From Octopus vulgaris (lineage: Eukaryota), in assembly GCA_951406725.2 (NCBI GenBank), contig OX597829.1:15872001-15936000 (forward strand): a stretch of 64,000 nt of DNA, given 5' to 3'. This document shows positions 641-63,822 of the stretch, in pieces (the stretch's first letter is position 1; each line of letters begins with the position of its first letter). The notes under the pieces are model-generated. The model had not been told where the DNA came from and did no database searches. It was given only the letters and a program-made list of their open reading frames with translations. The position numbers were made by a program, and so were the translations under genes.

Positions 641-1129
641 ACCATCCCCAAATACAAGAATATATGTGTGTGTGTGTGTATGTGTGTGTGTATGTGTGTG
701 TATGTGTATTGTTATATTTGGGGATGGTCACATTGTCAGTTTAGCCAATGAAAACACACGCACTATATATTTGGTGTTCACTTGCTTCAGCTTTATTTTA
801 TAGTAATTGTATTTCGGCCATATTTCTTTCCTCACAATTCTATGACCCCATCAGTAGTGCTTTGCTTTCTTCTTTTTTTTTTTTTTTGTCTGTCTCTCCT
901 TACTAATGATCTGCCATTTTGAAGAAAGCAAAGGACCACTGATGAGGTCACACAAGTGTAACGGAAGAACTCTGGCCGAAATACAATTAATATAAAATAA
1001 AGCTGAAACAAGTGAACACCAAATATATAGAGCGTGTGTTTCCATTGGCTAAACTGACAACATCAACATCCCCAAATACAACAAAATCTGTTTCAACACA
1101 CAAGAATCTTGCAAAATGAATATATAAAC

Positions 1130-13805: not shown

Positions 13806-14272
13806 TAGGCGCAGGAGTGGCTGTGTGGTAAGTAGCTTGCTTACCAGCCACATGGTTCCGAGTCCAGACCCACTGCGTGGCACCTTGAGCAAGTGTCTTC
13901 TACTATAACCTCGGGCCGACCAAAACCCGATTTGGTAGACGGTAACTGAAAGAAGCCCGTCGTATATATATATATTTAGATTCAGCAAAATTTAGATTCA
14001 GATGAATATGGTACTTAAGTGAAAGGCACCAGAATTTGGTATGGTATTATCCATATAAATCAAATGGGGTGATTATAATCAAAATAAGCAACAAGGATAT
14101 CCAAGGTAGTGTAGTACAATCGTTTCATGCTACTTCGTTTTATTAAACAATGTAAGTATTACATCAGTTTTAAAATGTAGAACAATCTTCAGCCACATAT
14201 AGAATTTTTTTAATTTAATGGACAATCTACATTATTATACTTATTTCATTTGCCAACATTATAAAGAGGGTA

Positions 14273-14925: not shown

Positions 14926-15021
<96 letters not shown>

Positions 15022-15314
15022 CTTTCTTTTATTAGCCACACAGGGTTGAATACAGAGGGGACAAATACAAATGCAGAGCTTTTCTTTTCGAGGGTGGAAA
15101 AAAATAAATGTAAGATTGCGATCAAAAGGGATCGAGAGGAGGAAAAAAAATTTTTTTAAATCGTGTATCACAGAAATAATGATAAAAACATTGATAAAAC
15201 AAGATTGGGTTCATCCGTGCGAAGAAAAGCCTACAGAAAAGACCACGGGAACCTCAGTCACGGAGGAAATAACCACATGAGATCAAAATGCTCTCTTTCT
15301 TTGTTTTTTACGAT

Positions 15315-18300
15315 CTACAGGATCATGCTCAAAATGGTTTCGTCACTCGCACGCACCATCTTTGCAACATTCACCCATCTTTTTTTTAATCTTTCGCGAG
15401 ACAAAACTTCCCTCTCCATTCTCACCTTCCTTTTCAAGTGGTACTTGAAAAAGTTGATGAGCGATTGGCCAGAGAGGTAAGTGTTTGTCTCTAATCCTTT
15501 CGCTCGGCTCCACCACACACATTCTTTCACCATGGCCACCAGTACGATGAAAACTGCCTTGTCTTCCCGGTTGAGGGAAGGGGGCGGAGCAATTCTCACA
15601 ATAGACTCGGCCGATAGGCGGATTCGTCCCACACGTGACAGCAGCCGTTCGGCATAAGCCCACAGGTCTGAAATGGTTGGACATTGCACGAGTGCGTGCA
15701 GAACGGTTTCGTCGCTCTGACCGCATCTCGGGCAAGTCGGTCCAGTGTGTCTGGAACCGTGTCTGTAGAGCTTATCCCGAACAGGTAATGCTTCTCGATA
15801 GCACTGCCAGGCCAGGGATCTTTGGTGGTTGTTCATAGGTCCCGGCCCGAAAGTTATCCTGAACAGGCGGGTCAGGTGTTCCTCGTCGACGCCCAGACTC
15901 TGCCCGAGTTCGTCGTCGCACCTCCCCTCCACTAATCCTCTATAGAATGCCTTTGTTGTGATGGAGTTGCACAAGTTCGATCCCGGACGGCAGAGTTGCT
16001 TGAGAGCAACGCGACACTCGCGGTGCCATTCGCCTAGCCTCGGTCTCTGCTTGATCCATGACTGTAGTTCGTCCAAGGAGACGAGCTGCGGGAAAGCGCG
16101 CCGCACAAAAGGCGACCACACCTGTTCACCGTTGTCTATGAAGCGCCGGAGATGTCGCAGTCTCAGCGCATGTCTGCGCATCATCAACCACGGCATGCCC
16201 AGCCCTCCATTTAGCGGGTGTTGACAGCAAATGGATCGCCTAACCATCGGAACGTTTCCCTTCCACAAGAAGCGGAAGAGTATACATTCCAGTTTGGTGA
16301 TGGTAGGGTCGGGACAAGGCACGACGGTCAGACGATATACTCGATGACGGATGCGATGTACGCGTTCGCCACCTCCGCCCGACCTTTTAGGGATAGATTT
16401 CTCTCAGCCCATTTCTGGGTGAGAGTAGCCACACTAGGCGTTATCTCGCCCCAGTTCTTCTCCATTTGGAGGTCCGGACCGAACCAGACCCCGAGCAATT
16501 TAACCGGTCCGTCCGTCCAGCGTCCCACGATGGAGACGCTGTTGGACGGCATGGGCCTGCCGAGCCGCAAGCCCACTGACTTTTCCCGGTTAATTTTTGC
16601 TCCCGTTATCGCTTCGTATTCTTTTAGTGTCCCGCCGACCAGCTCTATGTGCTCGTAGCTCGACACTATGACGGTGACGTCATCCGCGTATGCAGACACG
16701 CTCCTCCCGCATCCCAGCTCTCGTGGCATGCCCCTCAGCGTCGCCAGTTTCCGCAGTAGTGGCTCAAGAGTCAATACATACAGCAGCGATGAGAGGGGGC
16801 ATCCCTGACGAACCGAACGCATGATGTTAAAAGGTCTGGATAGATGACCATTTACGCGAACTACTGAGCGGATGCCGCTGTATAAGGCAGCGATCCAACC
16901 GCGGAAAACTGGACCGAAACCAGCCGCTTTAAGGACAGCCTCGAAGTAGTGATGGTCTACCCTATCGAAGGCTTTTGATTGATCCAAATTGATCAGCGCC
17001 CCACCCATGCCAGGATTCTTAACTACCCTGTCTATGATGTAGCGCATCAGATGGAGGTTGTCATGAATACTTCTACCCGGCACGGCGCATGTTTGCGCCT
17101 TGTCGATTAGTTTCTTGATGACAAGCGCCAACCTCTCGGCTAACACCTTGGCCAAAATTTTCAAATCTGCGTTGAGCAGAGTGATGGGCCTGAAATTATC
17201 TATGACGTCCCCCTTGTTTGGGTCTTTCTTAATCAGTGCCACTGATCCTCGCTTTACAAAAGCAGGAATACTCCCGTTTTTCTGCCAGTTGCAGTAGACA
17301 GCTGCCAAGACGCTTCCAAACAAGTCTGGCATATGAAAATAAAGTTCGTAGGGCAGACCATCCAAGCCTGGTGACTTGTCTATCGCGCAGCCTACCATCG
17401 CATCCTGTACGTCCGCAGCTGTGATAGGCCTTTCACAAGACTCCACCTCTTTTGCTGAGAGTCGTGGCAAGGCATGCAGGTAGGCACTAAAGTCCACTCT
17501 GCGTTCTGACCCACCACTTGTCCCAAACAGTTGGGTGAAGTGTTGTTGAAAAGCTCCACACATCCTTTTAGGCTCGAGCAATTCGCGCCCCTGTTCATCT
17601 ATAAGAGACTTGATGGTGGCTCTGTTGCCTCGTTGCGTCTCCACCACTCGGGCCTCTTGGGCGGCTCCAACTCCTTCGTTCATCAGAGCACGCATCCTAG
17701 CTCTGACAACGCATCCCTCGTGTTTGGCGTTGAGGTGTTGGTCGAGGACCAATCTCGCCGCCAGCACGTTGGACGCGATGCCAGTTCTAAGTGCCTCTTC
17801 TAAAGCCTTAACTAATTCTCCCTCTATTCTATTTCGGTCTAATGCTAGTGCTTTACTGTATCTGACTGATTCTGCTTTAATTGCTTTTTTTAGAGCATAC
17901 CACCATCTGTTGTTGATGATGGTACCCGTCAAAGCTCCCTTAACTAATGTTCTGATCCGGTCCCTGTAAACCTGTCGTGCTGTAAAAGACGCGTTCAGTT
18001 TCCAGTAACCAGGACCCTGCCTATGTGTCTTATCTAAGTCAAGTGTACAAGTCACAAACTTGTGATCTGTGTAACTGTCTATATGAAATTGTGGACAACC
18101 TACGCTATTTTTATCTATTGTCCTACAGAATACTCTATCTAAGTATGATCTGGACGACCCGATGCGGTTACTCCATGTCCACATTGGCACATTCGGGTGG
18201 TCCAGTCGGTACCTGTCAGACAGTTGGAAACGTCTGAGCAGGTCTTTGAGGCATTTGCATCCCCTTCTATTGCTATCTCTGCCCACGTAGTCTAGATGCG

Positions 18301-18733
18301 TGTCCAGGGTGGCATTCCAATCCCCCACTAAAAGTAAAGGACGAGACGTTCCCATGAAAGACTCTAGACGTCGAAAGAAATCTGGTCGGCCTGTTAAGGA
18401 CGGAGCATAAACTGCTATCAGTCGAAAAGCACACTCATTGCTGCCATCGACATCCAAGACGACCAGCCTACCCTCCGGGTCTAGGAAAATTGCTCTTACT
18501 TTGAGATCTAGACTCTTCCGGAGAAGCACCGCGGTGCCACCTCCGCCCATTCTCGGAGAAAAATAAATGTTAAAATGTGTACCGAAACTGTGCTGGAGTG
18601 CCCGCAAGCTGTGGAGTCTGGTCTCACTGATGGCTATGATATTCAGATTTAGTGACTTGATGTCATTTAACAGGTAGCCTTGTTTCCAAGGCGACCCCAA
18701 GCCACGTACATTTATACTGCCTATTCTGAGCAT
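15315..18733 (-). pseudogene. Tx1 ORF2 (APE endonuclease, reverse transcriptase, zf-RVT) with one frameshift
   Basis: Motifs SINVRGL, ISETRLH, AVYAP, GDWNA, YLDR, TDHK (APE); SPGLDGLP, NFRPITLLNADLKIL, LDQSKAFDRV, QGCPLS, YADD (RT); CPRCGQSDETVLHALVQC. A 2-bp insertion near 16337 (IEYIV* versus IDYCLTVVPCP in copy 3) splits it into ORFs 16328-18733 and 15315-16322. Confidence 0.95.
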
Positions 18734-18802
18734 GTTCCGATAAAAAATTGTGTTTTACACACGAAAAGAAAGTGCAAAAATGAAAGAGAGAGAGAGAAAA
18801 GG

Positions 18803-20890
18803 TTACTTGTTGTTCGAAAGTCCTTTGTTTTTCACCTCACAATCTTCTTCTATGAGGCTTTTGTATAGTTTTTTTGATGAATACTTTTGAAATCTCCCTA
18901 CTGCATCAGGGTAAAGAGATTTCAGGGTGCTGTATGTGTTCTGTGTTACGTGTATTATTTTAATGTGTTGTGGTGGTGTTGTGCGTGGGTGGTTACTTGT
19001 TTTTATGTCGTTTTCAGTTATGTTAGTGTTTGACCTAATGTGTTCCATTAGGTCGTGGTTGTTTGTGTTTATGGCTGTCAACATTGTTGTGGGGTTTGAT
19101 GATGGTGTGTTTGTGTTGATGTGTTTGTTTTCTGTGGATGTTTTTGTTTCGGGAGTGGTGAATCTTCCTGCTTTGTTTGTTATCTTTTCTTTTCTTTTTT
19201 TTCTCTTTTTCTTCTCCCCCCTGTGGCTATTTGCCAATCTTCTGTGTCTTCTTCGTCTAATGACAAATCAGAAGAATCAGAGCTTGGAAGAGGGAAAATA
19301 TTGGGGTCTATTGTAGACTGTGTTGATTTTGTTGTTGGTGTTGGTTGGTGAGCGTTAGGTTGTGGTGTATGCGGTTTTGGAGGTGGAGTGTGGGTATTTT
19401 GTGTTTGAGTGATTGTAGGTATTGTTGTGTTGTTTGGAGTGTCAATTTTGTGGGGATTTGGAGTAGTAATTGTTTCTTCATTTTCGATGAGTGTCTTTTT
19501 GGCAGATCTCTTTGGTTTGGGAGTTGGTTTATTCTTGGTTGTTGTTGTTGGTGATGTTGCTTCTGTTCTTGGTGCAGTTGGTGTGGTTGTTTGGTTGGTG
19601 AGGTTTGTTTTTTGTTGATTTTCTGTGATTAGTCCTGTTCGTGCAAAACGTGGTGTGGGTAGTAAACCTGGTTTATTTGTTTTTTCCGTTGTTTTTTCGT
19701 GCTGTTTTCTTGCGGCAGATTTGCAGTCTTTTTTTAGGTGTTGTTCACTGCCGCATATGTAGCAACGTGGCCTTCTGCCATCGACGACCACATACAACTT
19801 GTGGTCTTCTGATACACATATCTGGGTGGGTATTTTCTTTATGTCTTCTTGGTTTATATGTAGTAGAAATTCTACATTTTTTCCCACCCAGTTTTTGTGC
19901 TCCGTGACCGTGGTTTCCAAAATTGTGAAATCTTTCATTTTCACACATAAGGCCTTTACTAACCAGAGATTGTTAGCTATTTTTGGGACGTTGTTTAAAG
20001 TGATCTTAGTCACTTTCTGTCCACGATAGCTTGGTATTAATGTCAGTTCATCTGAATGAAGAGTTAGCGTTGAGAAACGTTTTGCTAACTCTTCAGTGTG
20101 GAAAACCACTTGTATGTGTGCGAACTTGCTCCACCAGGTCACATAGTCTTTGTAGTTCCAGATGGGTTTCAAGCATTTTTTATTTTGCTTGTGTTAGCCT
20201 TCTCTGGACTTTTTGTTTTCTTATTAATTATTTTATAAATAATTGTTCTTTTTTTTCATCTTCTAATATTTCTTCTGGTATGTTTATTTTTACTATACCA
20301 TCTACTTCCGTTATTGTAATGTTCGTGTCTGTTATTTGTTGTGCAGTAAAATATACTGTTGTCTTTTTTTCTTTAATCGCCTCGGCGAAATTTGTTGTTG
20401 TTTTGTTATTGTTGTTGCTGGTGGTGATGTTGTTGTTGGCTGCAGTTGGTAAATTTGGTGTATTTGGTTTGATTGTGCAAGTAGAAAGGGGTGGAAAATT
20501 ACTTGCATAATTTATTTCTGTATTCGAGCAGCTTTTGTCAATTTGTTTGGTGGTCACAGTCTTTTGTTTATTCACTTCAGTTCTTGTTGTTGGAGTAAAA
20601 CAGGTCTGAACGGAATTGTTGTTGTTGTTTTTGTTGTTTTTGTTGTTGGTGGTAGTGTCAGTGGCAGAAGAGACAGCCGTGGCAGCAGATGTCGAAATGG
20701 TGGCGCAATTTTAATTTTTGTTGTCATTGTTATTTTTGTTGTTGTTGGTAGTTGAGGTAGTGGATGAGGTGGCGGCGGTGGTGGTGGTGGTGGTGAAGGC
20801 GGTGGTGGTAACAGTAGTAGTCTCTATGTTGTTCTTGCTAGTGGTGGTGTTGGTGACAGGGCTGTTACTACAAGTAGTTGTAGCGTTCAT
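18803..20890 (-). pseudogene. Tx1 ORF1 (gag-like nucleic-acid-binding protein), fragmented
   Basis: Starts MNATTTCSNS at ATG 20890; ORF pieces 20228-20575, 19180-20172 and 18803-19237; knuckle RPRCYICGSEQHLKKDC; collinear with ORF1 of copy 3. Confidence 0.85.
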
Positions 20891-30739: not shown

Positions 30740-31330
30740 GATGGGAGTAGGTGGAGGTTCACATTATCAACTTGTACTCTTCTCTTTCTCTTTTTCCTTT
30801 TTGTTGACTGTACTCCATTCTCTGTTGCTTCCCCCGTCGCTTGGGTTTCTTCCTCTTTGTCTGGTTCCTCTTCACACACCTCTGTACCATATGGCGACGC
30901 AGGAGGTGGAGGTGCGATTTCCTGAATTACTGCTGGTGCCTTTGCGACAGATGGAGGGCACTCCGCTCTTAGGTGACCTTTCTAGCAACACTTATAACAT
31001 CGGGGCGTCCTGCCTCACCTCGTCGCCACCGTTATGGTGTCGACCAGCTTTTCCAGGTCCTCTGGGGCGGCCTGGATAATCATCTCCAGACACTACTCTT
31101 TCCAATTCCTCTGCGGTATACGTGTGGCTTGGAGGACCATAATCTTCTTCTAACCCTAATAGGATGGCTGTCGCTAGTCAGGCAACATCTCCCTCTAGAG
31201 AGATTTCTTTTACCCTTACCCTGGAAGCACGTCTTCCCAGGTAAATGGACAGAAGAACCACCTGATCTGTCTTGAATGAAGTTATGGAGTGCTGCCTGGT
31301 TGTTGCCTCAGTTGTGTGACTTACTGAGGA
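30740..31330 (-). pseudogene. Isolated Tx1-type ORF1 remnant
   Basis: Minus strand reads GRTPRCYKCC*KGHLRAECPP around 30955-31015, homologous to the GRRPRCYICGSEQHLKKDC knuckle of copy 1. Confidence 0.7.
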
Positions 31331-37123: not shown

Positions 37124-37414
37124 TGTATAATATATATGATTCAATAACACCTCTTTATTGTTAATCAATCAATTAAATACCTAACCAACTAACTAATCGA
37201 TCATTTGTTTAATGTGTCGGTTAAACCATCAATTGATTGTTTCTTTGTTAAATTCCTTTCGTTGCTGTTCATCATCAGTGACCTCATCAGTGACCTGCGC
37301 TCTCTATCTCTTCAAGGTCTGATTGTTGGCGTAATGGTCCTCCCAAAACACAACATGATTTGTTTCAACACACGAATATTCACATTAAGTATCTTGCAAA
37401 CCAAATACAAAAAC

Positions 37415-37461
<47 letters not shown>

Positions 37462-37496
37462 GCACATATACATATACATATACATATACATATCAA

Positions 37497-37726
37497 GGCG
37501 GCGAGCTGGTAGAATCGTTAGCACACCGGGCGAAATGCGTAACCGTATTTCGTTTGCCGTTACGTTCTGAGTTCAAATTCCGCCGAGGTTGACTTTACCT
37601 TTCATCCTTTCGGGATCGATAGATTAAGTACCAGTTGCGCACTGGGGTCGATGTAATCGACTTAATCTGTTTGTCTGTCCTTATTTGTCCCCTCTGTGTT
37701 TAGCCCCTTGTGGGTAGTAAAGAAAT
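37497..37726 (+). mobile_element. Family B SINE
   Basis: Same consensus. Confidence 0.9.
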
Positions 37727-37834
37727 ATATATATACATATATACATACATATATAAATATATACACACATATATATGTATGTATGTGTATGTATGTATGT
37801 ATGTGTGTATGTGTATGTGTATGTGTGTATGTAT

Positions 37835-38245
37835 CAAACCAGCTCGTTAAGAAAATCTATGTTAGAGACGAAAGCAGTATTTATACTGACAAGTAATGTT
37901 TATCACCACCTCAACGTGGGTGTTCTATAAGAATAGACGATACTTCTGATTTAACCCCCAGGAGAATGCCTCCTCCAGCTGGTTCTTCAGTGCGCTTCAC
38001 ACTCGATATATATTACAAGCAGGGAGAGAACACCTTTGCTATTGTAGCTCTGAGACCACCAGATGCTAGTTGCAAGACCAGTGGTTATGTGACATTGATT
38101 TTCTATATATATTGCAGGCTGGTGTGAACTACTGCTATGTCTAGCAGAGGAGTATCCATCACTGAAGATTACCAAAATGAGGTCGAAATTGCGTGATCTG
38201 ATGGTCTCAGACCTGGAGTCGTAGGGGGTTCTCTTCCCGCTTACA
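37835..38245 (+). mobile_element. Probable Penelope-like 3' end/pLTR with hammerhead motif
   Basis: Weak GIY-YIG C-terminal-like patch (ETKAVFI...HLNVG) upstream of a hammerhead motif at 38156-38204. Confidence 0.55.
38156..38204 (+). ncRNA. Minimal type I hammerhead ribozyme motif
   Basis: CCATCA-CTGAAGA-TT-ACC...GGT-C-GAAA-TTGCGTGA-TC-TGATGG; perfect 6-bp stem I; mismatch at the base of stem II. Confidence 0.7.
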
Positions 38246-38256
38246 ATATATATATC

Positions 38257-38332
<76 letters not shown>

Positions 38333-38520
38333 TAACCAAGAGAAGAGTGGAGATTTATTCACATCCAACACTTTTTTTTATTCAAACGTTTTTTAAAACA
38401 TACATAACACTGACCCAAAAAATGTTTCTACATCAGCGACTGCACATTACTCCGTATGCAATTATGAATCTTAGTCGCTTCAATTTCACCAAGGTTCCAT
38501 CACACACAACCTTTCCAAAG

Positions 38521-38832
38521 TGGAGGCACATGGCCTAGTGGTTAGAGCAGCGGACTCGCGGTCGAGGGACTGCGAGTTCGAATCTTAGACCGGGTGATGT
38601 GTGTGTTTATGAGCGAAACACCTAAGCTCCACGCGGCTCCGGCAGAAGGTGATTGCGAACTTCTGCTGACTCTTTCACCTCAACTTTCTCTCATTCTTTC
38701 CTCCTGCATCTTGCAGCTCACCTGCGACGGACCGACGTCCCGTCCAGGTGGGGAACCTATACGCCAAGAAACCGGGAAACCGGCCCTTATGAGCCAGGCA
38801 TGGCACGAGAAGGAACAAACATAAAAAACAAC
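38521..38832 (+). mobile_element. Family C-related SINE, tail type 3 (V-domain-like)
   Basis: Same head and core, then CCTGCGACGGACCGACGTCCCGTCCAGG...AGAAACCGGGAAACCGGCCC. Confidence 0.8.
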
Positions 38833-39406
38833 AACCTTTCCAAAGTGAACTAATTCTAAAAAGTGTCCTGCGTTTGTATTCAGCTGAAGGTGACAGCGTT
38901 ACTTTTTAATTCCATGGAATTCTGCTCTAATAATTACCTCTGCTGCTATTACAGTTGAAGCGTGGTTTTAAAATATTTATTCAGATTTCAGTTCATTATA
39001 GCAGTTTTGTTTACATTTTGCTGTGTGTCTTTCTATCTGTGTTTGCTTCCCACCACCGCTTGTCAACCGATGTTGGTGTATTTGTGTCCCCATAATTTTG
39101 TGGTTCTGAAAGAGAAATACTGATAGAATAACTACTAAGCTTTAAAAATAAACAAGGCAAAAATTCCTCTCGGGGCGGTGCCCCAATATGAGCAGAGTCC
39201 GATGACTGAAACAAGTAAGAGTTAAAAAGATAAAAGATGTGATAAAGAGACAAAAAACATGTTCTTCAACCCAGCCACGAACGAAACATGGGAGATTATT
39301 TCCCCACTCACCAAACTCACCACCACCCACCCATCACCACTACCACCACCACCACAACCTCTACAACCACTGAAATAAATATATGTATACATAAACGTTT
39401 ATGTAT

Positions 39407-39480
<74 letters not shown>

Positions 39481-39481
<1 letters not shown>

Positions 39482-39783
39482 AAGCGACAGAAGGCTTAAA
39501 TGTTAAAAAATATGTATATTTGAGTCAATATGTCTGAAGAATATTAGAAAATTTTTTTCCCTTATAATGACATAATTTTTAAAGAAAGACCGGTTTCGCA
39601 TTTAGCTTTTCAAATTTCTTGTGACGTTATGAAATTTGAAAAGCTAAATGCAAAACCGGTCTTTCTTTAAAAATTATGTCATTATAAGGGAAAAAATATT
39701 TTTTTTTTTAATTTTCTAATATTCTTCAGACATATTGACGCAAATATATATTTTTTTTAACATTTAAGCCTTCTGTCGTTTTT
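39481..39783. repeat. About 300-bp near-perfect, spacer-less palindrome between (TA)n arrays
   Basis: CGACAGAAGGCTTAAATGTTAAAAAA...TTTTTTAACATTTAAGCCTTCTGTCG, symmetric about 39625/39626. Confidence 0.92.
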
Positions 39784-39841
39784 TCACTCTTTACTATTTT
39801 TTATATATTCACCCACGTGCTTTCACAAACCAACTTTCTTA

Positions 39842-39928
<87 letters not shown>

Positions 39929-39943
39929 GTATATATTTATATA

Positions 39944-39979
<36 letters not shown>

Positions 39980-40346
39980 TGTATGTATGTATGTATATAC
40001 AAATGTTTATGTAGATATATATACACATATATACATATATATATACATATATGTATGTAAAAGATATTCTCGTGAATATTGATATGAATTAATAATTAGA
40101 ACTTCCGAAGAACAAGTACATAGTGCTAAATGACTCGAGGGATGTCACTCTCTGGCGGAATTTGGGTCAGTCGAGTCATCTGGCGCTATATACTTGATCT
40201 TGAGAAGTTCTAATATATGATTTTTATCAGTATTCATCTCATGAAAATAGTTTTTCTTGCATGATATAATGCTTCTGTTCACCAATAAAAACAAAACACG
40301 TCTGAAACAGCTGTAGTGAACCAAATTCAATCTGTTGTTGTTGTTG

Positions 40347-40422
<76 letters not shown>

Positions 40423-40452
40423 TATTGTTATTGTTATTATTATTAATATTAA

Positions 40453-40488
<36 letters not shown>

Positions 40489-40514
40489 CATATATACCTA
40501 CCTACCTACATACA

Positions 40515-40550
<36 letters not shown>

Positions 40551-40604
40551 CATGTATGTATGTATATATGTATATATATATATGCATATATATGTCTGTA
40601 TGTA

Positions 40605-40669
<65 letters not shown>

Positions 40670-40892
40670 CGGAGATGTACTCGCATAGCAAGTAATTTGA
40701 TCTGAGATCGTGTGCTGAAACGAAAACAATTGCAGCGTGGAAGCTGTTTATAAGCCATTTAAGAAACACACAAAAGCCGTTCGATTCACTTCAACATTTA
40801 AGTTTAATTCGTCAAAATACTTTCGTCGCTAAAATCCGCGACCGGTTCACTGACAAAAATCCGTGCTGCATATATATATATATATATATATG

Positions 40893-40991
<99 letters not shown>

Positions 40992-40996
40992 GTATG

Positions 40997-41045
<49 letters not shown>

Positions 41046-41102
41046 GCATGTAGATAAATAAAGAAATGGAGTTTAAACGCAGGTGTTATTCAAATTCTTT
41101 TA

Positions 41103-41197
41103 CTTTCGACATATGTTTCGAAGACAAATAATGTTGTCCAAAAGGAACAGAAGGAATAAAATGGTATAAAACAATGCAATCTTCTCATCAGGGAAAG
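41103..41197 (-). ncRNA. Minimal type I hammerhead ribozyme, inverted twin of 41753-41840
   Basis: Reverse complement reads CTTTCC-CTGATGA-GAAGA...TCTTC-GAAA-CATATG-TC-GAAAG. Confidence 0.7.
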
Positions 41198-41752
41198 AAA
41201 GTAACCAAACACATCCATAAGACATTTTAACAGAATGTAATGACCGCTTATATGATGAAGGAATCGCTAGCAAGTTTTTTTTAAAAAACCGTTAGTTGAT
41301 ACAACATCAAGGTAGTTTATATAAAGAGAAGGTGGAGAAATAAAAAAATTAGCAGAAAACTAATAGCGGAGAGACATAGAGCGAAAGGTGAATTAGAATA
41401 AAGCTTAAAGGCATGGAAGTAGATATATTTAGTGGAAATGAAATGTAAGAAAGAGTCAAAAGTCAAATTTTATAGAATACCTTTAGTTCCTATAAGTGAT
41501 TTCCACTATTCTGTAACATTCGACCTTTGACTGTTTCTTACAATTCACTCCTACTAAATATATCTACTTCCATGCCTTTAAGTTTTATTTTAATTCACCT
41601 ATCGCTCTATATCGCTCCGCTATTAGTTTTCTGTAAATTTCTTTCTTTCTCCTCCTTCTCTTTCTATAAACTACCTTGATTTTCTATCTACTAACGGTTT
41701 TTTTTTCTAACTTTTCTGTTGAAAAGTCTTATTGATATGTTTGGTTTCTTTC

Positions 41753-41840
41753 TTTCTCTGATGAGAAGATTGCATTCTTTTACACCATTTTATTCATTCT
41801 GGAATAATCTCAATGTTGTCTTCGAAACATATGTCGGAAG
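41753..41840 (+). ncRNA. Minimal type I hammerhead ribozyme (PLE type, palindromic stem III)
   Basis: TTTCT-CTGATGA-GAAGA...TCTTC-GAAA-CATATG-TC-GGAAG. Confidence 0.8.
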
Positions 41841-42040
41841 TAAAAGAATTTGAATAACACCTGCGTTTAACTCCATTTATTTATTTAACTATATTATGCA
41901 AAACATTTCAACAAAACCTGGAGTTTCTAGCCTTATAAGTAGGTTGTTACATCCTTGGTACTTGTGTGAATTTTTGCTACCCTGGTAACTGTTTATTTTT
42001 TCCGTGTTATTTGTAAACACTGGAAAAAACACATATACAT

Positions 42041-42097
<57 letters not shown>

Positions 42098-42102
<5 letters not shown>

Positions 42103-42473
42103 TATATAGAGGGTACTATTATTCATAGGTTCCGCACGCTAGGAGGGACTTTTGCAGTCAAAACTACTATCTATTTTTATAGATATGTAAAGATAAACAT
42201 TCGTACATGCTGCGGCGAATTCTACGGTTGGTTGTCGGGTATGTGATGTTGTGTTTTTTCTTATATGTCTTGAGTTCGTTGCACTGAAGAGCATAGAATG
42301 CATATTCTGCATTGATTGCGAAATCACAGGTGATATGTAACTAAATTCTGTTTTTAAATGACTCGCTTTGAAGCTTTGCATTCGGTACAATTTGTTTATT
42401 TTAATAGTTTTGACTGCAAAAGTCCCTCCTAGCGTGCGGTACCTATGAATAATAGTACCCTCTATATAATATA
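42098..42473 (+). mobile_element. Non-coding element with 69-bp inverted termini enclosing a hammerhead
   Basis: 42098-42166 and 42405-42473 are reverse complements with one mismatch; adjacent to (TA)n. Confidence 0.85.
42278..42341 (+). ncRNA. Type I hammerhead ribozyme with intact core
   Basis: Stem I GTTGCA/TGTAAC; core CTGAAGA (42284-42290); stem II GCA/TGC; GAAA (42320-42323); stem III TCAC-AG-GTGA; AUA triplet with predicted cleavage after 42335. Confidence 0.85.
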
Positions 42474-42581
42474 AATAAATATTTTCAAAGTTGAAAAAAT
42501 TTACAGATTTTTTCTCTTACGAGGTTTCTCATGCTAACTACTGATAATTTCTTATAAAGATTTTATCCTTATTTTTAAATT

Positions 42582-42628
<47 letters not shown>

Positions 42629-42752
42629 GGTGGGGGAGAGATTCTACCAGTTGTATATTGGAGAGATGTTATCCCTTAGTTGGTTGGATTCACAAACTCT
42701 AATTTTCGTGGAAAATATATATACATTCATACATACATAAATACGTACTCAC

Positions 42753-42940: not shown

Positions 42941-44240
42941 ATTGTTCTTTATTAGCCACACAGGGCTGCACACAGACGGGACATATTTCAAAGTAGAGCT
43001 TTTCTTTATGTGGAGAAAAAAAAGGTGGGGTAGGTTTTCGATCAAAAGGAATCGTAAAAGGGAAAGAAAAAAAGAAAAAAGGAAAGAAAAGAAGAAAAAA
43101 AGAAAAAGAAAAAAGAAAAAAACAATCAATAGGGATCGTGTATCACAGAAATGTCATGATGTAAACTGTAAAGGGGGAAGCAAATAGGGTTTATCCGTGG
43201 AAAGAAAAGCCTACGGAAAAGACCATGGTAACCTCGGTCAATAATGTCACATGTTAACACATTTATTTGCAAGTAAGTAATTCTCTGTTTTAAATTTTTC
43301 CAGGTTCATAGGACTATGCTCAAGGTGGCTTTGTCATTCATACGTGCCATCCTTGCTACATTCAATCATCTTTTTTTTAAACATTCGCTAGACAAAACTT
43401 GCCTCTCTACTCTCACTTTCCTTTTCAAGTGATACTTGAAGAAGTTGATGAGAGATTGACCAGAGAGGAAAGTGTTTGTCTCCATTCCTTTCAGACACGT
43501 CCACCAGATACATTCTTTCGCCATAGCCACAAGAATGATAAAAATAGCTCTTCCTGCCCGTTTGAGGGAAGGAGGTGTGACAATATTGATAAACCGACTC
43601 GTCCCACACGTGACAGCAGTCGTTCGACATAAGGTCGGAAATTGTTGGACACTGCATGAGTGCGTGCAGAACGGTTTCGTCGCTCTGACTACATCTCGGG
43701 CAGGTCGGCCCCGTGTTTCTCGAGCTATGTCTGTAGAGTTCATCCCGAACGGGTAGCGCTTCACGGTAGCACTGCCAGGCCAGGGATCTCTGGAAGTTGT
43801 CCATGGACCCTGACCCGAAAGTCGTTTCAAACAGGCGGGTCAGGTATTCCTCATCGACGAACAGGTTCGCCCCGAGCTCGTGTCGTACCTCCCCTCCACT
43901 TATCCCCTATAGAATGGTTTGGTTGTGCTGAAGTCACGCAAGGTCGACCCGGGACGGCATAGTTGCTTGAGAACAACGCGACACTCGCGGTGCCATTCGC
44001 CCTTCCTCGGCCTCTTTTTGATCTACGACTGCAGTTTGGTCATGGAGACGAGCTGCGGGAAAGCGTGCCTCACAAACGGCGACCAGACCTGTTCACCGTC
44101 GTCTACGTAGAGCCGGAGATGTCGCAGTCTCAGCGCGTGTCTGCGCATCATCAACCACGGCATGCCCAGTCCTCCTTTTAACGGGAGTTGACAGCAAATG
44201 GATCGCCTGAGCATCGGGACGCATCCTTTCCACAAGAAAC

Positions 44241-44241
<1 letters not shown>
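42941..44241 (-). mobile_element. 5'-truncated Tx1-clade LINE, copy 2 (ORF2 C-terminus plus 3' UTR)
   Basis: ORFs 44023-44235 ([31 protein letters not shown]) and 43388-43804 (CPRCSQSDETVLHALMQC) are homologous to copy 1; the truncation junction abuts (GATA)n at 44241. Confidence 0.93.
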
Positions 44242-44334
<93 letters not shown>

Positions 44335-44345
44335 TAGATAGATAT

Positions 44346-44410
<65 letters not shown>

Positions 44411-44430
44411 TAGATAGATAGATATATATG

Positions 44431-44517
<87 letters not shown>

Positions 44518-44797
44518 CTTTTTATTGTAGCCACACAGGGCTAAACACAGAATAAAAATGGACGAAATACAATGTAGAATTTTTTCTTTTTGAGGTGGGA
44601 TGGGTGGGGCACAAAAAAAAACGTTTGATCAATAGGGATCTGTGGGTTGTGTGGTGTGTAAAAAAGCAATATATATATATAAAGTTCACAGTTTAGGTGT
44701 AGCCTTGGAAAGAAAAACCTACAAAAAAGACCAAGGTCACCTCAGACAGAAAATGAACACATGAGTAAGTCGCCTTACTTCTCGTTGTCCCTTTTGG

Positions 44798-47700
44798 TTA
44801 CAGATTTATGCTTAAAATAGTGTCGTCTTTCATACTGACCATTTTTGCCACTTTTACCCACTTTTTATTAAAACATTCGTTCGACAAAGCCTCCTCTCTA
44901 TTCTCATCCTCCTTTTCAAGTGGTACTTGAAAAAGTTGACGAGAGACTGACCAGAGAGGAAGGTGTTTCTTTGCAGTCCTTTCAAACGCGTCCACCACAC
45001 ACATTCTTTCGCCATAGCCATCAGCGTAACGAAAACCGTTTTTCCTTCCCGTTTAAAGGAAGGTGGTGGAACAATATCCACGATAGACTCGGCCGATATG
45101 CAGGCCCGACCTACACGTGACAACAGCTGTTCGACGAAGGTCCACAGCTCTAAAATATCTGGACACTGTACGAGTGCGTGCAGAACGGTTTCGTCGCTCT
45201 GACCGCATCTCCGGCAGGTCGGTACGGTGATGGTTTTCGAACCGTGCCTGTAGCTCTTCTCTCGAACAGGTAGTGCGTCTCGATAGCACTGCCAAGCCAG
45301 GGATTTCTGGAAGTTATCCATAGGCCCCGGCCCGAACGTCGTCCTGAACAGGCGGGTTAGGAATTTCTCGTCGACGCCCAGGTTTGCCCCGAGTGTGTCG
45401 TCGGACCTCCCCTCCACTAGTCCTCTATAGAACGCTTTAGTCATTTGGAAGTTGCACAAGTTTGACCCCGGTCGGCAGAGCTGCTGTAGAGCTTGGCGAC
45501 ACTCTCGGTGCCAATCGCCCAGTTTCGGTCTCTTCTTGATCCACGTTTGCAGTTCGGTCAGTGAGACGAGCTGCGGGAAGGCGCGCCTCACAAACGGCGC
45601 CCACACCTGTTCACCGTCGTCGATGAAGTTCCAGAGATGCCGCAGTCTCAGCGCATGCTTGCGCATCATCAACCACGGCATGCCCAGTCCTCCATTCAAC
45701 GGATGTTGACAGCAAATTGACTTCCTCACCATCGGAACGCCACCCTTCCACAGGAAGCGGAAGAGTATGCGTTCCAGTTTGGTGATGGTGGCGTCGGGAC
45801 AAGGTACGACGGTCAGGCAGTAATCGATGACGGATGCGATGTACGTGTTCGCCACCTCCGCCCGACCTTTTAGAGATAGCTTTCTCTCGGCCCATGTTTG
45901 ACTGAGAGCAACCACTCTACTCATGATCTCGTCCCAGATCTTATCCATTTGGAGGTCCGGACTGAACCAGACCCCGAGCAATTTAACCGGTCCGTCCGTC
46001 CAGCGTCCCACTACTGAGCCGCAGTCGGACGGCATGGGCTTGCTTCTCCAGGTTCCGAGTAGCAAACCCACTGACTTTTCCGGGTTAATCTTCGCTCCCG
46101 TCACCGTTTCGTATTTTCTTAGTGTCTCGCCTATCATCTGGATGTGTTTGTCGCTCGACACTATGACGGTGACATCGTCGCCAGCTTCCGTAGTAGCGGC
46201 TCGAGAGTCAATACATACAGAAGCGCCGACAGGGGACACCTCTGACGGACCGAACGCGTGATGTCAAACGGTTTCGACAGGTGACCGTTCACCCGAATCA
46301 CCGATCGGATGCCGCTATACAAGGCAGCGATCCAACCGCGGAAGACGGGACCGAAGCCAGCCGCCCTGAGGACGGCCGCCAAGTACCGATGGTCGACCCT
46401 ATCGAAGGCTTTAGACTGATCCAAATTTATCAGCTCCCCACCCATGCCAGGATCCTTAACTACCCTGTCCACAATGTAGCGCATCAGATGTAGCGCATGT
46501 TTGCGCCCTGTCGACCAGTTTACCAATGACAAGCGCCAACCTCTCGGCTATTACTTTGGCCAAAATTTTCAAATCTGCGTTTAGCAGAGTGATGGGCCTG
46601 AAATTATCTATAAAATTCCCCTTGTTTGGGTCTTTCTTCAGCAGCGTCACTGCACCTCGGCTCACGAAACCGGGGATTCTCCCGTTTTGTTGCCAGTTGC
46701 AGTAGACTGATGCCAAGAGGTCGCCAAACAAGTCTGGCATTTGACAATACAGCTCGTAGGGTAAACCATCCAATCCAGGCGACCTATCCCTCGCACAGCC
46801 CGCCATCGCATCCCGCATGTTAGCGGCTGTAATGGGACTTTCACAACACTCCGCTTCTCTTGCCGAGAGCCGCGGCAGGTCGGTCAGGTAGGCACTGAAA
46901 TCCATCCCGCGTTCCGACCCACCACTCGCACCAAACAGTCGAGCAAAGTGCTGTTGAAAGGCCTCACACATCCCTTCGGGTTCGAGTAAACTGCATCCCT
47001 GTTGATCTATTAGAGACCGAATGGTGGCTCTGTTGCCACGCTGCCTCTCTGCTACCCGGGCCTCTCGCGCAGCTTCGATCCCTTCGTTCCTTAAGGCACG
47101 CATTTTAGCTCTGACGTCGCAACCTTCGTGCTTGGCGTTGAGGTGTTGGTCGAGGGCCATCCTCGCAGCCAGCACGTTGGTTGCGCTGCCAGTGGTAAGT
47201 ACCTCTTCTAGTTTCTTAACCAGGTCTCCCTCTACTCTATTTTGATCTATCGCTAATTCCTTGCTAAACCTAATTGATTCCGATTTTATTGCCATTTTCA
47301 GGGCGTACCACCAGCGGTTGTTAACGACGGCTCCCGTCAGCGCCCTCTTAATTAACTCGCTAATCCGGTTCCTGTAAACCTGTCGCGCTAAGAGCGACGT
47401 GCTCAGTTTCCAGTAACCGGGACCCTGTCTATGTGTCTTATCTAAGTCGAGCGTACACGTAACAAATTTGTGATCTGTGTAGCTGACTATTTTAAATTGT
47501 GGACATCCTACACTATCCCTATCCGCTGTCCTGCATAGTATTCTATCTAGATAAGATCTCGACGATCCGACGCGGTTTGTCCAAGTCCACGTTGGCACGT
47601 TCGGATGGTCGAATCGGAACCTGTCAGACAAATGGAAACGTCTGAGTAGGTATTTGAGGAACTTGCACCCCCTTCTATTCCTATCCATTCCCACATAATC

Positions 47701-48150
47701 TAGATGCGTGTCCAAGGTAGCGTTCCAATCCCCTACTAACAGTAAAGGTCTAGACGTACCCAGGAAAACCTCTAGACGTCTGAAGAAATCCGCCCGACCC
47801 GTTAAGGACGGTGCATAAACTGCCATCAGACGGAATGCACACCCATTTCTGCCATCCACGTCCAAGACAACCAGCCTACCCTCCGGGTCTAGGAATATAG
47901 TTGTTACTTTTACATTTAGACTCTTTCGAAAAAGCACCGCGGTACCTCCACCACCCATGTTCGGCAGACAGGGAGAAAAATAAATGTCGAATTGATCGCC
48001 AAACATGGACGCGAGGGCCCGCGGCTTGCTGGGTCTGGTTTCACTGCTAGCTACTATATCCACGTTCAGTGACTTAATGTCATTTAGAAGGTAACCTTGC
48101 CTCCAAGCCGACGCCAAGCCACGCGCATTCACACAACCTAATTTAAGCAT
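44798..48150 (-). pseudogene. Tx1 ORF2 of copy 3, disrupted by deletions and frameshifts
   Basis: ORF pieces 46456-48150 (APE and RT N-terminus), 46161-46532 (LDQSKAFDRV) and 44854-46239 (zf-RVT). The segment leading into YADD is deleted near 46178. Confidence 0.93.
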
Positions 48151-48224
48151 AATTGACGTTTACGAAAATTGTGTTTCACACACTACATTGGAAGAGACAA
48201 GAGGCAAGAGGGCAGGTCACTTAC

Positions 48225-54330: not shown

Positions 54331-55930
54331 TAATACACAGTATGTACTAGTGTACACTACATTTCACTGTACTGTATAATTCGAGAAAGGGAATGATAAT
54401 ATGCTGACGAACGTTTAGAGTCTAACTGACGAACGTTAAGAATATGTTGAGTCTAAACTTTAGACTCAATATATTCTAAACCGAAAAGCAGGAATCAATG
54501 ATTTCAGCAGGGGAAATTCTCTTGTGCTGCCAGGAATGATGTTGAACCTTCTAACAAATCAAGAAAATTTCTACCATAAAGAACAGGGAGCTAATTTTTA
54601 ATGTTACATTACGTAACTATGACAAATTGTTTCAGTATTAAGTTGGGCGAGGTTGTGACATTGAATCACAAAACAATTTTTCTATTACCTGTAGCAGTAA
54701 ATTGTTTTACGAAGTTGTTCACTATCATAACGATTTGTGGAGTGTTGGCAGAACGATTGCAATATTGGAAAAAAATGCTTTGCGGTATTTTCTTTTTGAC
54801 GCTTTAATTTCTGACTACAAATTCTTCCGAGGTCAGCTTTGTCTTTCATCCTCTCGGGGTCGATGAAATAAAGAACCAGTCAAGTAATGGTGTCGATGGT
54901 ATCGACTCAAACCTTCCTCTATAAATTATTCGACTTGCGCCTGAATCAGAAACTAATATTATAATTATTTGCGTTGGAATTTATAGTTTCTTCACTGCAT
55001 ATGGTTTTAATCACAGTGTTTCGTTGGGATAAAATTCTTGATTTCTATTTCGTATTTGCTATGAAATTAATCCTTTGAAACTCTAATTCAGATCAAATAT
55101 GCAAAACCAAAAAGGAAAAATAAATTTTGTTAAAAGTTTATCGCGTAAATAATGACATCGAGAAACGAAACATTAATCTACTGATTACAGCAGCACAAAT
55201 TCATTCGGAAAGTTATCATTTATTATCAATTAGAAGATTTAAAAGAATAAATGCAAAACAACAAGAGTGAAAGAACTAGAAAGCAACACAAAAATAAAAC
55301 AAAAACTAAACAATCTTGAATCAATTTAACAGATAGCTGCTCAGGTGCAACAGTCCTAACCCGTCTCCAGGTGTTAACTTTTCAAGTATCAAGCTTCCCA
55401 GTGGTTATATTTCAGGAACTCACTGGAAAAATTGCAAAGGAAAAATTAATTATAAGATCCCCTACAACGAATTTTGGTGGTTTAATGTTGAAGTACATAT
55501 ATGCATGCTTGTTTTCATGCATTGGTATACATGTGCGTATGCATGCATGTGTATGTATATATGACTATGAGTATATATAAATATACATATATATATTAAC
55601 ATGTACATATATGATATATATATATACAAACGTATACTCACACGCATTCATATATATGTTGATATAAGTTATATGTGCATACGCCTGGAGTTGTTAAAAC
55701 TCCCTACTACCACGACTAATAATGATATATATAAATAATGATTCTCGCTAGAAAATTGATTCAGTTCATGTATGACAAAATTATGGATGAAAAGACTTGA
55801 GATATACCTCTTTGGTGTAAACATGGGCGCCAGAGATTTTAGGAAATTTCAAGCCTAATTATAATATGTTGTGTATGTTGTGCGTGTGTGTGTATACACA
55901 TATTTATCCGTATATGTGCGTGTATATATT

Positions 55931-59909: not shown

Positions 59910-60322
59910 GGCGGCGAGCTGGCAGAAACGTTAGCACGCCGGGCGAAATGCTTAGCGGTATTTTGTCTGCCGTAACGTTCTGGGTTCAAATTCCACCGAG
60001 GTCGATTTTGCCTTTCATCCTTTCGGGGTCGATAAATTAAGTACCAGTTACGCACTGGAGTCAAGGTAATAGATTTAACCCGTTTGTCTGTCCTTGTTTG
60101 TCCTCTCTATGTTTAGCCCCTTGTGGGTAGTAAAGAAATAGGTATTTCGTCTGCCGTTACGTTCTGAGTTCAAATTCCGCCGAGGTCGACTTTGCCTTTC
60201 ATCCTTTCGGGGTCGATAAATTAAGTGCCAGTTACGCACTGCGGTGGATATAATCGACTTAATCCGTTTGTCTGTCCTTGTTTGTCCCCTCTATGTTTAG
60301 CCCCTTGTGGGTAATAGAGAAA
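59910..60322 (+). mobile_element. tRNA-derived Meta-domain SINE (family B), dimeric
   Basis: Head GGCGGCGAGCTGGCAGAA, B-box GTTCAAATTCC, Meta-like GCCTTTCATCCTTTCGGGGTCGATAAATTAAGTACCAG; 20-bp TSD AATATAGGCAATTCCTATAT (59885-59904 and 60326-60345). Confidence 0.9.
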
Positions 60323-63105: not shown

Positions 63106-63222
63106 AAAAATATAAGATAAAAGATATATAAAATTTATGCTTGAATATATTTCCTGCAAACTTGTTAGTTATAGTTTCCAGTATGGCATGATTTGTTGCT
63201 AAAACAATATACAATACCACTA

Positions 63223-63822
63223 AGGCGACGAGCTGGCAGAAACGTTAGTACGCCGGGCGAAATGCTTAGCGATATTTCGTCTGCCGCTACGTTCTGTGTT
63301 CAAATTCCACCGAGGTCGACTTTGTCGATTAAATAAGTACCAGTTACGCACAGAGGTCGATATAATCGACTTAATCCGTTTGTCCGTCCTTGTTTGTCCC
63401 CTCTGTGTTTAGCTCCTTGTGGGTAGTAAAGAAACAGATATTTCGTCTGTCTTAACGTTCTGAGTTCAAATTCCGCGGAGGACGACTTTACTTTTCATCT
63501 TTTCGGGGTCGATAAACTAAGAACCAGTTATGCACTGGAGTCAATATAATCAACTTAATCCCTTTGTCTGAACTTGTTTGTCCCCTCTATGTTTAGCCCC
63601 TTGTGGGCAATAAAGAAATAAGAAACGTTAGCACGCCGGGCGAAATGCGTAGCCGTATTTCGTCTGCCGCTACGTTCTGTGTTCAAATTCTGCCGAGGTC
63701 GACTTTGCCTTTTATCCTTTATGGTTCGATAAATTAAGTACCAGTTGCGTACTGAGGTTGATCTAATCGATTGGACCCCTCCCAAAACATTTAGGGTCTT
63801 GTGCGTAGAGTAGAAAAGAATA
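63223..63822 (+). mobile_element. Family B SINE, three tandem units
   Basis: Three bodies; the third ends in a different tail (GGACCCCTCCCAAAACATTTAGGGTCTTGTGCGTAGAGTAGAAAAGAATA) like the one at 110-160. Confidence 0.88.

What the first reader, a model, noticed from the sequence alone, without database searches (positions are those of the whole stretch)
37835..42590. Cluster of unrelated ribozyme-bearing modules in under 5 kb
Seen: five sequence-unrelated modules (38156, 39481, 40668, 41056, 42098) carry hammerhead or hammerhead-like motifs, separated mostly by (TA)n; three are inverted repeats. Inference: TA microsatellites in this genome host many non-coding PLE-dependent, ribozyme-containing fold-back elements that standard annotation would call unknown repeats or MITEs. 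Taken together this is a strong candidate for an undescribed system.
Basis: partly seen in the sequence, partly recalled or inferred. Interest (0 to 1): 0.7.

Follow-up and report, generated by a model that had tools for sequence, protein, structure and literature searches.

The report
Penelope retroelement stubs with hammerhead ribozymes
The small hairpin-shaped repeats with hammerhead-ribozyme motifs are real, but they are likely the usual cut-down tail ends of several Penelope-like jumping genes that insert in TA repeats; the exception worth testing is one very abundant 200-base family whose ribozyme core appears to have a swapped base pair.

Summary
Four of the five modules hold a type I hammerhead fold: M4 and M5 canonical, M1 one substitution away, M3 a variant on the minus strand. 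M2 has only the 3' half. The motifs far exceed shuffles and the modules are unrelated in sequence. The anatomy is the published insertion product of Penelope-like elements (PLEs): 5'-truncated end, hammerhead near the 3' end, head-to-head inverted copy, one-sided tail, (TA)n target (PMC8557442, PMC4209133). Similar stubs lie at 709-1084 and near 14,150, so this is not a local system. M3 (40668-40870) stands out. Thousands of contigs from three DNA runs lie on it. It has two alternative 3' ends about 55 nt apart, the PLE tail signature. Its core reads G3...C8 instead of C3...G8, in this copy and in two loose-end consensus lines. My searches found that swap only as an engineered mutant. No parent element could be linked and cleavage was not tested. 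Verdict: known kind of debris, plus one candidate non-autonomous family with a variant ribozyme.

The parts
37835..37997 (-). One-sided extension beyond M1's inverted arm; holds a lone CUGAAGA (37990, minus) without a 3' half; may be the element's longer 3' end or a separate insert
   Evidence: membership in M1 not tested
37998..38064 (-). M1 inverted arm, an inverted copy of 38196-38263 that stops about 3 nt 5' of the predicted cleavage site
   Evidence: 53 of 66 identical
38156..38204 (+). M1 type I hammerhead: 6-bp helix I, CUGAAGA, extra nucleotide after A9, helix II with broken 10.1-11.1 pair, GAAA, near-palindromic helix III, UC cut site after 38198
39479..39808 (.). M2 head-to-head palindrome (arms 97% identical, 12-nt centre); each arm read outward starts with a hairpin stem and a hammerhead 3' half only (intact in the left arm, one change in the right)
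39809..39840 (+). About 32-nt one-sided extension of M2, the size of the published PLE tail
   Evidence: tail identity inferred
40059..40255 (.).
40668..40730 (-). M3 optional tail; many copies end near 40724-40729 and others near 40671, in AT-rich flanks
   Evidence: table 7
40731..40870 (-). M3 body, bounded by an 11-nt imperfect inverted repeat (40731-40741 and 40860-40870); member of a very abundant family
40809..40857 (-). M3 variant type I hammerhead: 7-bp helix I, core G3-U-G-A-A-C8, position 9 C in this copy and A in the loose-end consensus, extra G, 5-bp helix II, GAAA, short palindromic helix III, U17, cut after 40815
41048..41894 (.). M4 head-to-head palindrome, arms 41048-41479 and 41507-41894, 89% identical
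41101..41196 (-). M4 left-arm hammerhead copy, helix I broken by one mismatch
41753..41840 (+). M4 right-arm canonical type I hammerhead with a long loop II and palindromic helix III, cut after 41835
42100..42470 (+). M5: inverted 5' arm (about 42091-42192) copied from the 3' end (42374-42480), body with hammerhead
42278..42341 (+). M5 canonical type I hammerhead, 6-bp helix I, CUGAAGA, helix III of 4-5 bp, UA cut site after 42335
42471..42581 (+). One-sided extension between M5's right arm and the next (TA)n
   Evidence: membership in M5 not tested

Best explanation
The modules are non-coding fold-back repeats, four with a type I hammerhead fold, and are likely independent 3'-end insertion products of several Penelope-like element (PLE) families that would have integrated into (TA)n tracts. 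Mechanism, inferred from published PLE biology: a GIY-YIG endonuclease/RT nicks AT-rich DNA and starts reverse transcription at one of two internal sites near the RNA 3' end, which gives copies with or without a tail. It usually stops early, in or just upstream of the hammerhead, and a second truncated copy is joined head to head, which gives the inverted repeat. Shown here: the folds, the inverted arms with 3' ends pointing outward, cut sites 59-135 nt from the arm ends, and for M3 two alternative 3' termini and strand-switch joints. Inferred: the enzyme, the parent families and the order of events. In M1, M4 and M5 the fold-back is predicted to bury much of the ribozyme, so most copies are probably inert. 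M3 is probably a short unit remobilised in trans in great numbers, with a G3:C8 core.
For: Hammerheads far above shuffles. [quoted passage not shown] The Hydra-clade table shows the same style, including extra nucleotides and U17 cut sites, with (TA)n preference for 26 of 27 families and an octopus member (PMC8557442 supplement). Inverted 5' copies and one-sided tails are described as typical. M3 loose ends fall at two places about 55 nt apart and run into AT-rich flanks, matching the two RT start sites that define the PLE tail (PMC11167929). 4 of the 15 joints shown switch strand at 40870 to different partner positions. No RT or GIY-YIG match in 14 of 62 frames tested from the finding. Like modules lie outside the cluster at 709-1084 and near 14,150. 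Arm identities of 78-97% point to separate ages. Predicted burial: 76 of 88 hammerhead nt in M4, 34 of 64 in M5, 29 of 49 in M1, 1 of 49 in M3.
Against: No module was linked by sequence to an autonomous PLE. No genome is held. The RT-type frames scanned in the window carry AP-endonuclease, RVT_1 or zf-RVT domains, which is LINE-like. None of six short motifs from the modules matched the octopus consensus sequences in the PMC8557442 supplement; their 3 hits were elsewhere. The M3 tail (about 55-60 nt) and the extensions of M1, M4 and M5 (111-163 nt) are longer than the published 30-40 bp. Family data exist for 1 of 6 modules only. The local clustering (p about 0.013) is not explained beyond target preference.
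Confidence: 0.8

Rival explanations
1. Several or all modules are dedicated non-autonomous fold-back elements, master templates with fixed ends that are copied as units by PLE proteins.
For: For M3: thousands of contigs lie on a 203-nt unit; an 11-nt panhandle joins its 5' end to its short 3' end (9 of 11, shuffle p 0.015); strand-switch joints with different partners all pivot at the end of this cap. Non-autonomous PLE derivatives exist (MRC1 in PMC8557442; retrozymes).
Against: 40870 is also the last base of the stretch laid, so copies that run further 5' would not show as joints; 545 of 11103 contigs in X1 ran over an end. Truncation near the hammerhead is expected for ordinary copies. No family data for the other modules. 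M2 lacks half of the ribozyme.
Confidence: 0.3
2. The fold-backs are MITEs or foldback DNA transposons that target TA, and the hammerhead motifs are captured or incidental.
For: M5 has 61-bp arms that are 97% identical around a unique centre, flanked by TA.
Against: Four unrelated modules each have a hammerhead pointing towards a nearby 3' end. M1's arm stops at the cut site and M2 pivots beside a hammerhead 3' half. M3 shows two alternative ends and variable strand-switch joints, which cut-and-paste copying would not give.
Confidence: 0.06
3. The modules are non-LTR retrozymes that propagate through self-cleaved circular RNAs.
For: Type I hammerheads in short non-coding AT-rich units of 200-400 nt, as in animal retrozymes (PMC7229834).
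Against: Retrozymes are defined by head-to-tail tandem units with a hammerhead in each. No such tandem was found here; the copies are single or head to head.
Confidence: 0.06
4. The region is a functional, selected cluster of ribozymes or hairpin RNAs.
For: Modest local enrichment. Long hairpins could act as double-stranded RNA if transcribed.
Against: Mixed orientations, different arm ages, substitutions that break helices or the core in M1, M3 and M4-left, and interspersed unrelated repeats.
Confidence: 0.03

Closest known systems
Insertion unit of endonuclease-bearing Penelope-like elements, especially the Hydra clade incl. Hydra-1_Obim (Craig et al. 2021, PMC8557442; passages, supplement parts 2 and 53 and search hits seen)
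   Same: 5' truncation, inverted 5' copy, one-sided tail, hammerhead near the 3' end, (TA)n preference, extra nucleotide after A9, U or A at the cut site
   Different: No ORF in any module; no sequence match to Hydra-1_Obim's 3' end (by eye and by motif search); tails and extensions longer; all 34 rows of that hammerhead table have a C3...G8 core, M3 has G3...C8
Minimal hammerheads of metazoan PLEs (Cervera and De la Pena 2014, PMC4209133; parts 1-2 of 4 read)
   Same: Type I, palindromic short helix III (predicted dimer cleavage), extra nucleotide between 9 and 10.1, single motifs from truncated PLEs, pairs on opposite strands 100-700 bp apart
   Different: The natural core covariation reported there is U3-A8; M3 shows G3-C8. 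M4 has an unusually long loop II
PAc (Poseidon, Anolis) in vitro mechanism (Frangieh et al. 2024, PMC11167929; parts 1-2 of 4 read)
   Same: Two internal RT start sites giving an optional tail; AT-rich targets; engineered C3G/G8C double mutant partly restores cleavage
   Different: Autonomous element with ORF; tail 30-40 nt against about 55 nt in M3
Animal non-LTR retrozymes (PMC7229834, passages; bioRxiv 10.64898/2026.07.22.740005, part 1 of 5)
   Same: Short non-coding hammerhead-bearing units proposed to be non-autonomous PLE derivatives
   Different: Those are head-to-tail tandems making circular RNAs; these are solitary or head-to-head, in microsatellites
Non-autonomous Chlamys elements such as MRC1 (PMC8557442, passage)
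   Same: Non-coding PLE-dependent elements mis-annotated as other classes
   Different: Green-algal, with pLTRs and head-to-tail copies; the paper found no canonical hammerheads in most Chlamys

Membership tests
Type I hammerhead ribozyme | CUGANGA and GAAA core with three helices and NUH cut site | tested here: met
   M4 right arm and M5 pass the strict descriptor; M1 fails one helix II pair; M2 fails
Type I hammerhead ribozyme | M3: Watson-Crick pair 3:8, A9, G10.1-C11.1, A15.1-U16.1 | tested here: inconclusive
   G3:C8, G10.1-C11.1 and A15.1-U16.1 are present in the window copy; A9 is C in the copy and A in two loose-end consensus lines built from 35 and 11 contigs
Type I hammerhead ribozyme | Self-cleavage | not testable with these tools
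   Only contigs were available; no raw reads
Penelope-like element insertion | Hammerhead close to the 3' end, in sense orientation | tested here: met
   Cut sites 59-135 nt from arm ends
Penelope-like element insertion | Inverted 5'-truncated copy joined at the 5' end | tested here: met
   M1, M2, M4, M5; strand-switch joints for M3
Penelope-like element insertion | Optional one-sided tail of 30-40 bp | tested here: inconclusive
   Two 3' termini shown for the M3 family but about 55 nt apart; 32-nt extension in M2 seen in one copy only
Penelope-like element insertion | Microsatellite, (TA)n target preference | tested here: met
   M2-M5 abut TA tracts; M3 loose ends are AT-rich
Penelope-like element insertion | Sequence continuity with an RT plus GIY-YIG ORF | not testable with these tools
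   No genome held; no coding remnant in 14 frames tested
Non-LTR retrozyme | Head-to-tail tandem units, each with a hammerhead | tested here: not met
   No tandem unit in this window; genome-wide not testable
MITE / foldback DNA transposon | Fixed terminal inverted repeats and fixed ends across copies | tested here: not met
   M3 has two 3' ends and variable inversion partners; other modules not tested
MITE / foldback DNA transposon | Target-site duplication | not tested
   Flanks are microsatellites, where a duplication cannot be read

The most novel reading that the evidence does not exclude
M3 is a 140-200-nt non-autonomous PLE parasite, a fold-back stub that became a master template with panhandle ends and reached tens of thousands of copies, and it carries an active natural G3:C8 hammerhead that standard CUGANGA descriptors cannot see. 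It would be a SINE-like class born from a PLE insertion scar, and would mean that ribozyme censuses miss whole high-copy families.
Probability: 0.3. Interest if true: 0.65.

Novelty: new variant of a known kind. Interest (0 to 1): 0.36.

Why it matters
The cluster itself matters little: it shows how PLE stubs of several families pile up in TA tracts and get mislabelled as MITEs or unknown repeats. M3 matters more. A high-copy family that keeps a compensatory swap of the catalytic 3:8 pair suggests selection on the ribozyme fold during amplification. That bears on the open question of whether PLE hammerheads do anything in transposition, since PMC11167929 found cleavage dispensable in vitro. 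It is directly testable with one genome alignment and one cleavage assay.

Tried and rejected
Own genome: none held, so no genome-wide scan or link to a parent element. Rfam: no hammerhead hit in focused scans of M1, M4, M5; the whole-window rows shown were microsatellite and hairpin matches, nearly all to miRNA models. No other copy of any module in the window apart from short weak matches. Pattern searches for M3 in prokaryote and viral collections: 1 hit in metagenome contigs, inside a GC-rich microbial coding region; 4 hits in viral contigs with no similarity beyond the 17-19-nt motif; 0 in genome contigs. All rejected as chance. Sequencing runs: no RNA holder listed on record. One run guessed to be RNA (X13) had 997 contigs on M3, which is no evidence of a discrete transcript. 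Table 3 lists no other letters at 40844-40870; I do not use that as evidence, since places near alignment ends appear to be filtered. ARAGORN: no tRNA in 37400-42700. Pfam: 2 weak sub-threshold hits among 14 frames of the finding, rejected. The relaxed-scan hit at 48306 and stricter-list rows at 30770 and 46641 were judged chance. The lone CUGAAGA motifs of M2 and at 37990 were not counted as hammerheads; about 1.6 such heptamers are expected by chance in the region against 7 seen. Lunse et al. 2017 on PLE hammerhead variants could not be read and may already list G3-C8. Earlier-findings look-ups by place, by sequence (2) and by two word sets returned nothing.
Full report
Setting. The window is AT-rich animal DNA dense in microsatellites, with a 230-bp SINE-like repeat in many copies and decayed LINE-type elements whose frames carry AP-endonuclease, RVT_1 and zf-RVT domains. 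From the look of the SINE and the microsatellite density I take the host to be an octopus. That label is recalled and comes from no call; the run search gave only coded names. No whole genome is held.

Checking the observation. A strict type I hammerhead descriptor finds 2 motifs in 64 kb, both in the finding: M4's right arm and M5. Shuffles give means of 0.0 and 0.06. A relaxed descriptor, written after I had seen M1 and M3, lists 6 motifs: M1, M3, M4, M5 inside, and 14192 and 48306 outside. After removal of simple repeats the counts were 3 in the finding (0 of 300 shuffles reach it) and 5 in the window (0 of 40). M1 has a 6-bp helix I, an extra nucleotide after A9 and a single broken pair closing helix II. 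M4's left arm holds a second copy with a broken helix I. M2 is a 97% palindrome with no complete hammerhead: a 3' half sits beside the centre and points outward, and its CUGAAGA points the other way. The modules share no sequence. Fold-backs number five with long arms (M1, M2, M4, M5 and an unlisted M2b) plus an 11-nt panhandle in M3.

Anatomy. In M1, M4 and M5 the hammerhead points towards a nearby end, 59-135 nt from the cut site, and an inverted copy of that end sits at the 5' side. In M1 the inverted arm stops about 3 nt from the cut site. In M2 both arms start next to the hammerhead's 3' half. Each module has extra sequence on one side only, 32 nt in M2 and 63-163 nt in the others; whether these belong to the elements was tested only for M3. 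Arm identities range from 78% to 97%, so the insertions are of different ages. None of 14 reading frames tested, of 62 listed in the finding, matches an RT or endonuclease. Folding whole modules predicts that the inverted arm buries much of the hammerhead in M4 (76 of 88 nt), M5 (34 of 64) and M1 (29 of 49), but not in M3 (1 of 49). Two similar stubs lie outside the finding: a fold-back at 709-1084 with a hammerhead core and helix II, and a motif near 14,150 between TA tracts. Four of six such modules within 4.2 kb has p about 0.013, a modest and post hoc excess.

The M3 family. I laid contigs from four runs on 40668-40870 at 80% likeness. 11103, 6310 and 9209 contigs were laid from X1, X2 and X4 (DNA by guess or kind unknown, three organism labels) and 997 from X13, a run guessed to be RNA. 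Summed depth peaks at 1.5-4.3 million against 5-90 for single listed contigs, which suggests some 10^4-10^5 copies; the tool warns that this is no copy number. Among the 24 loose-end rows shown (653 not shown), ends into AT-rich sequence of low agreement fall at 40723-40729 (9 rows) and 40670-40671 (3 rows): two alternative 3' termini about 55 nt apart. Of 15 joints shown (6 not shown), 4 switch strand at 40870 to partners at 40722, 40730, 40795 and 40799. This is the head-to-head arrangement with variable second copies. It also shows that the 11-nt cap at 40860-40870 was present when a further inverted copy was added. The caveat is that 40870 is the end of the stretch laid, and 545 X1 contigs ran over one end or the other. 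Majority letters at 40810 and 40820 restore a perfect helix I pair and a palindromic helix III. The loose-end consensus behind 40830 (35 contigs in X1, agreement 0.8; 11 in X2, 0.76; median loose length 16-17 nt, so the far letters rest on fewer contigs) gives A at position 9 and agrees with the window on G3 and C8. A 4-contig consensus behind 40831 reads differently across the core, which counts against full uniformity. The family core therefore probably reads G3-U-G-A-A-C8-A9, a compensatory swap of the tertiary 3:8 pair.

Comparison with the literature. PMC8557442 (passages; supplement search hits and parts 2 and 53) describes PLE insertions as highly 5'-truncated, often with an inverted truncated copy at the 5' end and a 30-40-bp tail at one end, biased to microsatellites. 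Its Hydra clade lists (TA)n preference for 26 of 27 families, includes an octopus member, and has hammerheads with extra nucleotides and U17 cut sites. All 34 rows of its hammerhead table have C3...G8. [quoted passage not shown] PMC11167929 (parts 1-2) ties the tail to two internal RT start sites, shows AT-rich targets, and finds that the engineered C3G/G8C double mutant partly restores cleavage, which was not needed for insertion in vitro. PMC3088659 (section 8) lists U3-A8 as the natural covariation. PMC3884650 (passages) mentions G3-C8 only as a tested variant. PMC6765202 (passages) says PLEs tend to insert into or beside earlier copies, which fits local pile-up. PMC8967140 (passages) shows Penelope among abundant cephalopod repeats and sets unknown repeats aside. 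Searches for a natural G3-C8 hammerhead and for octopus hammerhead repeats found no report, but the library lacks most subscription papers, Lunse et al. 2017 could not be read, and Repbase and Dfam were not available. bioRxiv supplements were closed and may bear on related retrozyme families.

How it most likely works. Shown: folds, arms, orientation, TA flanks, M3's abundance, two 3' ends and strand-switch joints. Inferred: PLE RT/endonuclease complexes of several families nicked TA tracts, began reverse transcription at one of two sites near the RNA 3' end, stopped in or near the hammerhead, and joined a second truncated copy head to head. Most copies then decayed. I put 0.8 on this for the cluster. 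For M3 the further reading, a short unit remobilised in trans with an active swapped-core ribozyme, gets about 0.3, since neither the fixed 5' end nor activity is proven.

Verdict. The cluster is a real but known kind of PLE debris, not a new system. Earlier AI notes from other genomes reached similar readings; they are leads, not support. One family, M3, is a candidate new variant. Interest 0.36; 0.65 if the novel case holds.

Noticed in passing
window 709-1084 (and 640-660): Another head-to-head fold-back (144 of 164 identical) with CUGAUGA, a 5-bp helix II and GAAA at 939-981 but no helix I partner; a 21-nt piece of its end recurs at 640-660 between microsatellites
   Followed up: partly
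window 13964-14270, minus strand: About 300-bp segment between TA tracts with a Hydra-style type I hammerhead (core 14192, long loop II); its end beside the TA tract resembles M5's terminus over about 15 nt (seen by eye)
   Followed up: partly
window 40059-40255: Sixth fold-back inside the finding (M2b), 78% identical arms, possibly pivoting at a hammerhead helix III
   Followed up: partly
window 39597-39651: M2's centre is a 21-bp perfect stem with a 12-nt loop directly before GAAA; it may be a long helix II on which the cDNA snapped back
   Followed up: partly
window 15021-20200 and 43123-48160: Decayed LINE-type retrotransposons (AP endonuclease, RVT_1, zf-RVT; a zinc-knuckle frame upstream of the first), some interrupted by (GATA)n arrays
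   Followed up: partly
window 37495-37724, 2554-2916, 59957-60322, 63222-63770: Abundant 230-bp SINE-like repeat, with partial-tandem forms of period 184
   Followed up: no
window 38506-38847: A second SINE-like repeat flanked by a perfect 17-bp direct repeat, a likely target-site duplication
   Followed up: no
window 54435-54481: Small 47-bp palindrome with a partial direct copy just upstream
   Followed up: no
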